Shown here: positions 41,670 to 44,051 of the stretch, piece after piece
Layout: the number at the start of each line of letters is the position of its first letter
Numbering within the stretch: position 1 is the stretch's first letter
NCBI GenBank assembly: GCA_950097015.1
Contig: CATNEN010000001.1
Coordinates: 23,250,001 to 23,314,000, forward strand
DNA length: 64,000 nt
Source: Macrostomum hystrix
Lineage: Eukaryota > Animalia > Platyhelminthes
Direction of reading: 5' to 3'
The notes under the pieces: generated by a model
Database searches by the model: none
Told to the model about the DNA's origin: nothing
The model's input: only the letters and a program-made list of their open reading frames with translations
Program-made: the position numbers and the translations under genes

Positions 41670-42460
41670 CAATGCAAGAGAAGCGATGACTGGATTTCGC
41701 CCAAGTTCGGGCTCGTTGTCGGAGTGGAAACCTACGAAGTCGTTGCCTGTTCGGTAGACGTTGACAAGACAAGAATTGAAGGCCGGTAAGTCAAGTTGAG
41801 AGTTGAGCAAGATTGCGGATGATTGGATGCCAGTTGTTGTTAGCCTGGATGGTTTCTCCGGAGTAAGAATAAGAAGAATAAGTCCTGGATTGTTTTGAGG
41901 AGGTCATCGGCAAGATTGGTGAAGGCATTCGGATAGAAGTCGACTGGACAGGTGTCAAGAATAAGGAATTTGGTGTAGCACCCAAGACTGTTGATGGCAA
42001 GCAAGTCAAGGCTTTTGGACGATGTGGAAGTGCACGTGGAAGAGTTCGAACCTTTGGAGTCGCGTCCACTCGCCGTCGTCGAAGCAGCATTAGTGTCGCT
42101 TGGACTGCTGATCGGGCTCGGCTTGTCGGCTTGGGCTTGGGCTTGGGCTTGGACTTGGGCTGGGACTTGGGCTTGGGCTTGGACTTGGGCTGGGACTTGG
42201 GCTTGGGCTTGGACTTGGACGATGGTGTTGTTGGGAGAGGATGTACTGGATGCGGGGGGAGAAAGCATCTCAGTATCCTCAGTGGTGTTACTGCTGGCTG
42301 GTGTTGGGGCTGTGGACTGGCGTCGCTGCTTCTTGTCCGTGGCTGCGGCTTGGGCGATTGCGTCGGTTGATTGGCGGAGGTTGCGCTTGGTTTGGACTGG
42401 TAGCGGCTGCTGTGGCTTGGTCGTCTTTGGGTCTTTTGGTTGCTTAGGTTTAGTCGACAT
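41670..42460 (-). pseudogene. Intronless ORF with a low-complexity N-terminus followed by the N-terminal half of an ALKBH2/3-like AlkB domain; frameshifted and truncated
   Basis: Reads [21 protein letters not shown]...[37 protein letters not shown], with the HxD motif at 41718-41726. Confidence 0.85.
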
Positions 42461-44051
42461 TTTACTAATTTAATAAAAAACTAAGCTAAATTTAAAGTGG
42501 TACCGCATCCGGGGGACGAGGGTAAGATGAGTGATGAAAGTAGTGAGTAAAGTAAATAATAGTAAAACCTCTAAAGTAATTTATAACATGTAAAGTAAGA
42601 GGTAAAGTAAGCAATTAAATGTAAAAGTAGTATAAATGCGAATTAAATTCAATTAAATTAAAAGTAGTATAAATGCAGTTAAGTTCAATTCAATTAAAAA
42701 TGCACTTTAAATTCAATAATAGAAATATAATACAAATATGATGATAAAAGTAGTATAAAGCAAATTAATTCAATTAAATAAAAGTAGTATAAATGCAAAT
42801 ATGATGATTAAAGTAGTATAAAGCAATTAAATTCAATAAAAGTAGCAGTCTACAGCACATCATAATTAAAACATGGTTTTATCCCTCTATAAAAAATTAA
42901 AATATAAAACTAAAGGCCTAATAATTGCCAAAGATAAATAAAGTATCTGCAAATTTTGCTTGTCACATTTGTGATATATATTTTTGTGTAAACCTTTTTT
43001 ATACCAATATCAAGACCAAAGCTAGATGGATAAATGTAAAAATAGTACTTGGCAAGGCAATACCTAAGTCTAAGGGTAAGATCTAAGGGTAAGAAGAGCA
43101 ATATGACATGATTTATGATTGTGAAGCTAAGACGAGGAATAAAAATGAAAATATAGAACTAGCTTGGCCTACGAGCAGCATACAATCAACTTTTAAATGG
43201 GCCTATCATTATAATTGTATGTTGAAATTCGTTGGTTAATCTAAAAAGTCAACCAGAATATTCTACAAAACTCGAAATTATAATTAGGCTTACCTTCGAA
43301 AACAGAGAGTGGTTAATGGGCAGCACCTCTGAGTACGTTCTTGTTTTGTTGTACCATAAAAGAAGATAAGCATTCTCAATCCTCTCTAATGGAAACTGCA
43401 TCGCAATAGCGTGATGTCTCTTACCACTGCGACTATGCATACTCAGATAATGAACAACAGAGTCAATCGGTCAGTACGTTGCGTCTTTGCAAAAATCAGA
43501 GCCCTGTGGTCCAAAGCAAAAGCGAAAAGCTGTTTAAATTATCAATAAATTTAAACACAGAAAGTATTTCCTATCTTATTCGGCAAAAAAATTTTGCAGC
43601 AGTCTAATACTCAGCATTACTGCACTATACAAAAACGTTTTCGCCAAAAACAAGATAAAAATTAAGGATACACTTTTGAATGCTTTGGCAAACTAGAAAA
43701 AGGTTTGTTAAGATTTCTAAGATTCTGTGAAGTTCTGCAAAGATTCTATCAGAAATGCAAATGACTACCGAAAGTGCTTATATTCATACTTTTCACATTC
43801 TCTAAATAATCGAATCATTTCTTGAGGCTGTAAGGCTGAATTTAATGTAAAGATTGTTGAAGGAAAATTAGGGTTTTGGAAATTCTTATCTGCTAAATCT
43901 TACATGATCTGTCATTATCTGCGCAAATCTTTCAGATCTGCTAAGATGCATAAGGAAAAGCAGATCTGCTACGAAGGGTTCAGCAGATTGTCATCTAAGG
44001 GTAGCAATTAACTTCTGTGTTAATCACAGAAGTCACAAAGTATAGATATAC

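What the first reader, a model, noticed from the sequence alone, without database searches (positions are those of the whole stretch)
41670..42850. Second, independent intronless AlkB ORF that looks like the 5' end of a related LINE
Seen: the ATG at 42460 opens an S/T/P/Q-rich low-complexity leader followed by an ALKBH3-like N-half with an intact HxD ([19 protein letters not shown]). It has no introns, whereas DNA-transposon genes in this window are spliced. Its upstream region is rich in AAAGTA repeats, like the 5' UTR of LINE copy B (8600-8680). Its N-terminus differs from copy B, which suggests a second family. Inference: AlkB-ORF1 fusion is shared by more than one LINE family in this genome. 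The fragment also ends at ASLAL, almost exactly where the 6-kb fragment begins (GAVRKF), so the two halves reconstruct one whole domain.
Basis: partly seen in the sequence, partly recalled or inferred. Interest (0 to 1): 0.8.

Follow-up and report, generated by a model that had tools for sequence, protein, structure and literature searches.

The report
Second AlkB-carrying repeat family, broken copy
This is a broken, cut-off copy of a repeated gene whose protein carries an ALKBH3-like domain kept under purifying selection; it is likely the front end of a LINE jumping gene that would repair methyl damage on its own RNA, and it differs from a second AlkB-carrying LINE in the same window, but its link to a reverse transcriptase is not shown.

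Summary
The ATG (42460, minus strand), the low-complexity leader and an ALKBH3-like N-half with HxD are real. The ORF is not intact: it stops at 41840, and two frameshifting deletions spread the AlkB half over three frames. Contigs from public runs show a multi-copy family that carries the missing letters; 7 of 7 listed AlkB differences and 24 of 39 overall are synonymous. The family continues past 41676 as SLG-ATREF, so 'AL' is flanking DNA and the neat join to GAVRKF at 6 kb is not a real junction. The 6-kb half has no close relative in those runs, so two distinct AlkB families exist. That 6-kb copy is a LINE (AlkB, three zinc knuckles, APE, RT), with a stop and a frameshift in ORF1. For the target, no zinc knuckle, APE or RT link was obtained, so LINE identity is inferred (about 0.65). 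The AAAGTA resemblance to copy B is background. I found no AlkB-ORF1 LINE in the papers searched; this scan noted such elements before in other genomes.

The parts
42461..42850 (-). AT-rich region upstream of the ATG (23% GC) with a 36-38 bp tandem repeat at 42612-42841; likely 5' UTR of one subfamily
   Evidence: summed contig depth in X1 is 134-205 here and falls to 69 beyond 42857; an abundant variant diverges beyond 42489
41996..42460 (-). ATG and S/T/P/Q/A-rich leader, with a QAQAQV-type repeat at 42128-42218
   Evidence: 17 of 32 listed differences to other copies are synonymous; indels in other copies sit just upstream of the ATG
41676..41995 (-). ALKBH3-like AlkB N-half, split over three reading frames; the frame from the ATG stops at 41840
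   Evidence: 7 of 7 listed differences synonymous
41874..41882 (-). First frameshifting deletion: other copies have 75 letters where the window has 7; one end of the extra part reads EPRQIVWYGP
   Evidence: tables 5 and 7 (X1, X2; loose ends also in X3)
41799..41800 (-). Second frameshifting deletion: other copies have 8 more letters
   Evidence: table 4 (X1, X2, X3)
41718..41726 (-). HxD iron-binding motif (HSD)
41670..41675 (-). Flanking DNA that happens to read AL; the family homology breaks at 41676
   Evidence: table 7; depth in X1 drops from 982 to 128
39693..41630 (+). Helitron-like repeat unit with a 23-bp satellite, abutting the broken end (neighbour, not part of the element)
   Evidence: Helitron end pattern recalled, not from a library hit
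5705..6010 (-). AlkB C-half of the other family (copy A), with distal His and RxxxxxR; cut at its 5' side, where the RT of copy B joins it
   Evidence: Pfam profile 130-194, E 2e-4, below cut-off; E 1.9e-8
5003..5704 (-). Copy A ORF1 middle, in frame with the AlkB C-half across one TAA (5704-5702) in a Q-rich run
   Evidence: 336 codons, 1 stop
4236..5018 (-). Copy A ORF1 end, frameshifted near 5003-5018, with three CCHC-type knuckles starting at 4814, 4757 and 4697
   Evidence: Atlas look-alikes zf-CCHC (0.92) and PRE_C2HC (0.89)
2399..4381 (-). Copy A ORF2 frame: APE endonuclease and start of RT, broken at 2399

Best explanation
The stretch is a decayed, 3'-truncated copy of a multi-copy, intronless gene with an ALKBH3-like domain under purifying selection, likely the 5' end (UTR and ORF1 start) of a LINE family distinct from the AlkB-carrying LINE at 2.4-6.0 kb, whose ORF1 protein would remove 1-methyladenine and 3-methylcytosine from the element's own RNA or cDNA. 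Shown: the domain, the multi-copy family, the selection signal, the two deletions, the break at 41676 and the difference from the 6-kb family. Shown for the 6-kb copy only: the order AlkB, linker, zinc knuckles, APE, RT. Inferred: that the target family has the same downstream layout. Predicted mechanism: ORF1p coats the LINE transcript in cis; the tethered Fe(II)/2-oxoglutarate dioxygenase oxidises N1-methyl-A and N3-methyl-C, which block base pairing and stall reverse transcriptase (established knowledge, recalled), so more transcripts are copied to full length. This copy itself cannot make the enzyme.
For: Pfam AlkB hit above cut-off. All 16 PDB hits are ALKBH3 or ALKBH2, none ALKBH5 or FTO; WHP, GATR.F and MEGA are shared with the ALKBH3 chain printed. 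Multi-copy: 56 contigs laid from X1, summed depth about 410-1170 over the coding part (repeat skipped) against 69 on the flank; high-depth variants also in a second organism, X2 (depth is no copy number). Both deletions are absent from other copies and each shifts the frame as seen. 24 of 39 listed coding differences are synonymous against about 0.25 expected (P 6e-6), 7 of 7 in AlkB. An AlkB-ORF1-APE-RT layout exists in this genome and one X1 contig matches it without a difference over 4000-6039. No terminal repeat at the 5' boundary within the window. ALKBH3 prefers single-stranded nucleic acid and removes m1A and m3C (PMC7835257, passages); viral AlkBs repair RNA (PMC2553587, abstract).
Against: No zinc knuckle, APE or RT was linked to the target family. 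No protein of the family was found (0 hits; only stand-alone AlkBs of 157-214 aa among 61 hits). No long ORF2 relative carried an AlkB domain (0 of 12); the knuckle query found 0 of 58 candidates. An intact C-half was not seen for this family: the X3 continuation reads SLGATREF then a stop, and the high-depth X2 contig reads SLGNS then a stop. The template for the LINE reading, copy A, is a single locus with a stop and a frameshift in ORF1. The selection test uses only the 40 best-supported of 126 differences, and they are not independent events. The UTR resemblance to copy B is background.
Confidence: 0.65

Rival explanations
1. The AlkB gene is cargo of another mobile element class (Helitron, CACTA, LTR or Penelope-like element) or of a non-autonomous cassette, and the LINE look comes only from the neighbour at 6 kb.
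For: No downstream link to ORF2. The broken end abuts a Helitron-like unit. The high-depth X2 variant is broken just after SLG. An orchid Gypsy element carries AlkB as a separate ORF (PMC9289625, passages).
Against: Other copies run on into AlkB at 41676, so the Helitron-like junction is local. No terminal repeat was found at the 5' boundary within the window. The only ALKBH3-like piece with known context here lies in a LINE.
Confidence: 0.2
2. It is a host ALKBH3 gene family (expanded paralogues or processed pseudogenes), not a mobile element.
For: The domain is ALKBH3-like and a low-complexity N-terminal leader does not exclude a host protein. The host gene could not be compared.
Against: Many divergent variants at high depth in two organisms with a strong synonymous bias; dead retrocopies would drift neutrally. 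Near-identical collapsed copies in X2 (depth about 80 against 2 for a contig identical to the window) look like recent amplification.
Confidence: 0.1
3. The target and the 6-kb fragment are the two halves of one element, split by 35.7 kb of later insertions.
For: Same strand and right order; Pfam positions 94-129 and 130-194 abut; two random breaks fall within two codons only about 2.6% of the time.
Against: The family continuation differs from the 6-kb start at 7 of 18 letters, against about 4% in the AlkB N-half. No family contig lies on 5700-6010 at 80% likeness. The true break leaves two residues open. No other AlkB piece exists in the window.
Confidence: 0.05

Closest known systems
Phalaenopsis Ty3/Gypsy elements with an AlkB ORF (Gypsy_Pa_2799; PMC9289625, abstract and passages)
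   Same: A retrotransposon that carries its own AlkB-family dioxygenase with HxD, His and RxxxxxR motifs.
   Different: That element is an LTR retrotransposon of plants, the AlkB is a separate ORF, and it is ALKBH5-like with m6A demethylase activity shown in vitro. Here the domain is ALKBH3-like, in an animal, follows a leader in the first ORF and, in copy A, precedes LINE zinc knuckles; no activity was tested.
AlkB domains of plant RNA viruses (PMC2553587, abstract)
   Same: An RNA-based replicon with a built-in AlkB predicted to repair m1A and m3C on its own RNA.
   Different: Those are viruses with shown activity; here the carrier is a genomic repeat and likely a LINE.
Type I ORF1 of non-LTR retrotransposons, RRM plus CCHC (PMC4120745, passages)
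   Same: Copy A has three CCHC-type knuckles at the ORF1 end, upstream of APE and RT.
   Different: The paper's main text has 0 occurrences of AlkB, oxygenase or demethylase; its accessory domains are PHD, esterase and coiled coil. The target itself breaks off before any RRM or knuckle.
Human ALKBH3 (PDB 2iuw, 8jnr, 9ncz)
   Same: Best solved relative of both halves; 22 of 36 identical residues around HxD (counted).
   Different: A single-copy host enzyme (recalled); the target is multi-copy, intronless and has a leader of about 150 residues.

Membership tests
AlkB family, ALKBH2/3 group | Profile match to 2OG-FeII_Oxy_2 and closest solved relative ALKBH2/3 | tested here: met
   33.4 bits against cut-off 31.2; 16 of 16 PDB hits are ALKBH3 or ALKBH2
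AlkB family, ALKBH2/3 group | HxD and the upstream NxY motif | tested here: met
   NVY and HSD
AlkB family, ALKBH2/3 group | Distal His and RxxxxxR in the same protein | tested here: inconclusive
   Missing from the target (break at 41676); present only in the other family's half at 5705-6010; two continuations seen for the target family hit a stop within 10 codons
AlkB family, ALKBH2/3 group | Fe(II)/2OG-dependent demethylase activity | not testable with these tools
   needs an assay
LINE (APE-type non-LTR retrotransposon): target family | ORF2 with APE and RT downstream | not testable with these tools
   No genome held; loose ends limited to 30 letters; no family protein in the databases
LINE (APE-type non-LTR retrotransposon): target family | Multi-copy, intronless, no terminal repeats | tested here: inconclusive
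   Multi-copy and intronless met; no terminal repeat within the window, but the 3' end is missing
LINE (APE-type non-LTR retrotransposon): target family | 3' tail and target-site duplication | not testable with these tools
   3' end absent from the window
LINE (APE-type non-LTR retrotransposon): copy A at 2.4-6.0 kb | ORF2 with APE and RT downstream of ORF1 | tested here: met
   PF14529 E 8.7e-13 and PF00078 E 2.8e-7; 12 of 12 hits carry an RT domain
Type I ORF1: copy A | CCHC zinc knuckles | tested here: met
   three motifs; Atlas 0.92 to zf-CCHC clusters; no Pfam knuckle hit at E 0.1
Type I ORF1: copy A | RRM immediately upstream of the knuckles | tested here: inconclusive
   single-sequence fold failed, pLDDT 36; PRE_C2HC look-alike at 0.89 is a lead only
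Processed pseudogene of host ALKBH3 | Neutral drift from a single parent mRNA | tested here: not met
   7 of 7 AlkB differences and 24 of 39 overall are synonymous; host gene not available for comparison

The most novel reading that the evidence does not exclude
At least two divergent LINE families in this animal genome, one recently amplified and shared with a second organism, carry a selected ALKBH3-type repair enzyme at the front of ORF1p. This would be an old, repeatedly kept LINE module that repairs reverse-transcriptase-blocking methyl marks on the element's RNA, and would imply that RNA methylation damage or host-placed m1A/m3C limits LINE copying.
Probability: 0.5. Interest if true: 0.72.

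Novelty: new variant of a known kind. Interest (0 to 1): 0.5.

Why it matters
AlkB cargo is described for plant RNA viruses and one orchid LTR lineage. I found no report of it in LINE ORF1 in six full-text searches (listings only) or in the main text of two ORF1 surveys. Repbase, subscription journals and those papers' supplementary domain tables were not seen and may hold such elements. An ALKBH3-type enzyme on the RNA-coating protein makes a direct test possible of whether m1A or m3C on retroelement RNA limits retrotransposition. Two distinct families in one genome would show the module is kept over long times. This particular stretch is a dead fragment and adds supporting, not decisive, evidence.

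Tried and rejected
No whole genome is held, so the suggested genome BLAST could not be run. Protein searches found no member of the family: 0 hits for the N-terminal frame among 1.84 billion representatives; 61 of 75 candidates for the HxD piece, all 157-214 aa, named ones bacterial; 0 of 58 for the knuckle piece; 12 of 4314 for ORF2, none with AlkB. The metagenome scan kept 80 of 170 loci; none of the 80 matched the ORF1 or ORF2 pieces. The viral scan found 0 of 600. No RNA holder was listed. The fold of the ORF1 middle was unusable, so no fold search was run. No tree was built: the halves do not overlap, only about 40 residues are reliable, and no host ALKBH2/3 was held as a sequence. The higher identity to bacterial AlkBs (up to 78% over 36 residues) than to human ALKBH3 (61%) is a best-of-many figure on a short conserved stretch and was not taken as gene transfer. 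An intron at the break was considered and rejected: X3 reads straight through. A link between the target family and two high-depth pieces (a Q-rich 35-mer at 5632-5666; a related RT at 6080-6140 in X1, X3, X4) is possible but unshown and was not counted. Look-ups of earlier findings by place and sequence found nothing for this stretch.

Full report
What is in the sequence. The feature lies on the minus strand. The ATG is at 42460 and its frame runs 206 codons to a stop at 41840. The first 150 residues are 53% S, T, P and Q. The AlkB part is spread over three frames: the tail of the ATG frame (KFLILD...DLLKT, 41971-41891), a second frame (SYSYSG...WHPIIR, to about 41800) and a third ([10 protein letters not shown]...HSD...IASL, 41780-41676). 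The third piece scores 33.4 bits on Pfam 2OG-FeII_Oxy_2 (cut-off 31.2). Its 16 PDB matches are all ALKBH3 (best E 5e-8) or ALKBH2 (E 0.02 or worse).

A multi-copy family under selection. Eleven runs hold part of the stretch; I laid four. In X1, 56 contigs were laid, with summed depth of about 410-1170 over the coding part (a repeat at 42121-42227 was skipped) and 69 on the flank beyond 42857. The tool warns that depth is no copy number, so I take only 'many variants'. X1 probably is, or is close to, the source sample, since its flank contigs match without a difference. X2 is filed as another organism and holds variants at depth about 80 beside a window-identical contig at depth 2. Other copies have 75 letters where the window has 7 (41874-41882) and 8 more at 41799. 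Each gap is two more than a multiple of three, as the observed frame changes need, and one end of the first gap reads EPRQIVWYGP, matching QPRLTAWYG in the ALKBH3 chain. Of the 40 best-supported differences listed (126 in all), 39 are coding: 24 are synonymous against about 0.25 expected (P 6e-6), 7 of 7 in AlkB and 17 of 32 in the leader. The counts are not independent events, but the bias argues against drifting retrocopies.

The apparent join with the 6-kb half. Pfam positions abut (94-129 and 130-194), on the same strand and in order, so I first tested one split element. The reads reject it. Homology ends at 41676; X1, X2 and X3 continue with SLG, and X3 with SLGATREF. 'AL' is flanking DNA and two profile positions stay open. 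The X3 continuation differs from the 6-kb start at 7 of 18 letters (by eye), while the AlkB N-half differs at 5 of 126 (X2 record 8). On 4000-6300, only the window-identical X1 contig covers the AlkB C-half (depth flat at 93). No other AlkB piece exists in the window. So there are two distinct AlkB families. Three breaks (target, the X2 variant, copy A) fall within three codons of one another; I cannot explain this.

The neighbour that gives the LINE reading. Copy A reads, on the minus strand, AlkB C-half with distal His and RxxxxxR (6010-5705), one TAA inside a Q-rich run, 233 more codons in the same frame, a frameshift near 5003-5018, three CCHC-type knuckles and APE plus the start of RT. 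One X1 contig confirms 4000-6039 letter for letter. This fits a type I ORF1 (PMC4120745, passages) with an AlkB domain in front; the RRM could not be shown. Copy B (8440-6010) lacks AlkB, aligns with copy A only from about 8243/5007 onward and is likely an internal deletion, so its different N-terminus says little about families. Its UTR likeness to the target is background: score 30, reached by 17 of 544 tiles.

What is missing. Nothing links the target family to knuckles, APE or RT. No genome is held and no family protein is in the databases. An intact C-half was not seen: both continuations read hit a stop within ten codons. The broken end abuts a Helitron-like unit, but other copies run on there, so that junction is local.

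Mechanism. Most likely (0.65) the target is the 5' end of a second AlkB-ORF1 LINE. ORF1p binds the element's RNA, and an ALKBH3-type dioxygenase would remove m1A and m3C. ALKBH3 prefers single-stranded substrates (PMC7835257, passages), and viral AlkBs repair RNA (PMC2553587, abstract). That these marks stall reverse transcriptase is recalled knowledge. An m6A-eraser role, as in the orchid Gypsy AlkB (PMC9289625, passages), is less likely because no ALKBH5 or FTO hit appears. Rivals are cargo of another element class (0.2), a host gene family (0.1) and one split element (0.05).

Novelty. Six searches (listings) and term searches in two ORF1 surveys (0 occurrences of AlkB) gave no AlkB-ORF1 LINE. 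Supplements, Repbase and subscription papers were not seen. This scan's own unchecked notes report similar elements in other genomes; I use them as leads only. The flatworm identity of the host comes from such notes and was not tested. Verdict: new variant of a known kind, interest 0.5.

Noticed in passing
window 24284-27448, 27444-39692, 39693-41630: Tandem Helitron-like units: a GC hairpin plus CTAG at 27418-27448 and 39666-39692, each followed at once by a TC...TAATATACTAAAAATG start; each unit holds a 482-bp block and a 23-bp satellite, then different DNA.
   Followed up: partly
window 36353-37287 (+): Two RPA-like OB-fold frames (PF01336, PF16900) inside the second Helitron-like unit; possibly Helitron-borne single-strand binding protein.
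   Followed up: no
window 41676, 6010 and X2 record 8: Three breaks in AlkB fall within three codons (profile 132-135); two junctions show short repeated fill-in sequence. Unexplained.
   Followed up: partly
window 42498-42518: About 20 letters upstream of the ATG still align by eye between the window and the diverged variant seen in X1-X3; possibly a conserved UTR element.
   Followed up: no
window 5632-5666 and 6080-6140: High-depth contigs share a Q-rich 35-mer with copy A's linker (X1, X2) and a related RT stretch (X1, X3, X4); they may belong to the target family, but no link is shown.
   Followed up: partly
window 30841-35397 (-): Nearly complete LINE with APE, RT and RNase H in two long frames.
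   Followed up: no
window 16920-20395 (-): RT element with an N-terminal C2H2 finger and no APE hit, R2-like by recall, interrupted near 19.1 kb by a 33-bp repeat.
   Followed up: no
window 52776-54977 (-) and 21351-22716 (-): 733-codon frame without any Pfam hit, with a 71% identical relative at 21.4-22.7 kb; probably a transposon gene.
   Followed up: no
window 45622-47028 and 56301-57707: 1.4-kb inverted duplication at 99.9% identity, with a further 0.7-kb inverted pair inside it; possibly the arms of a large foldback-type element.
   Followed up: no
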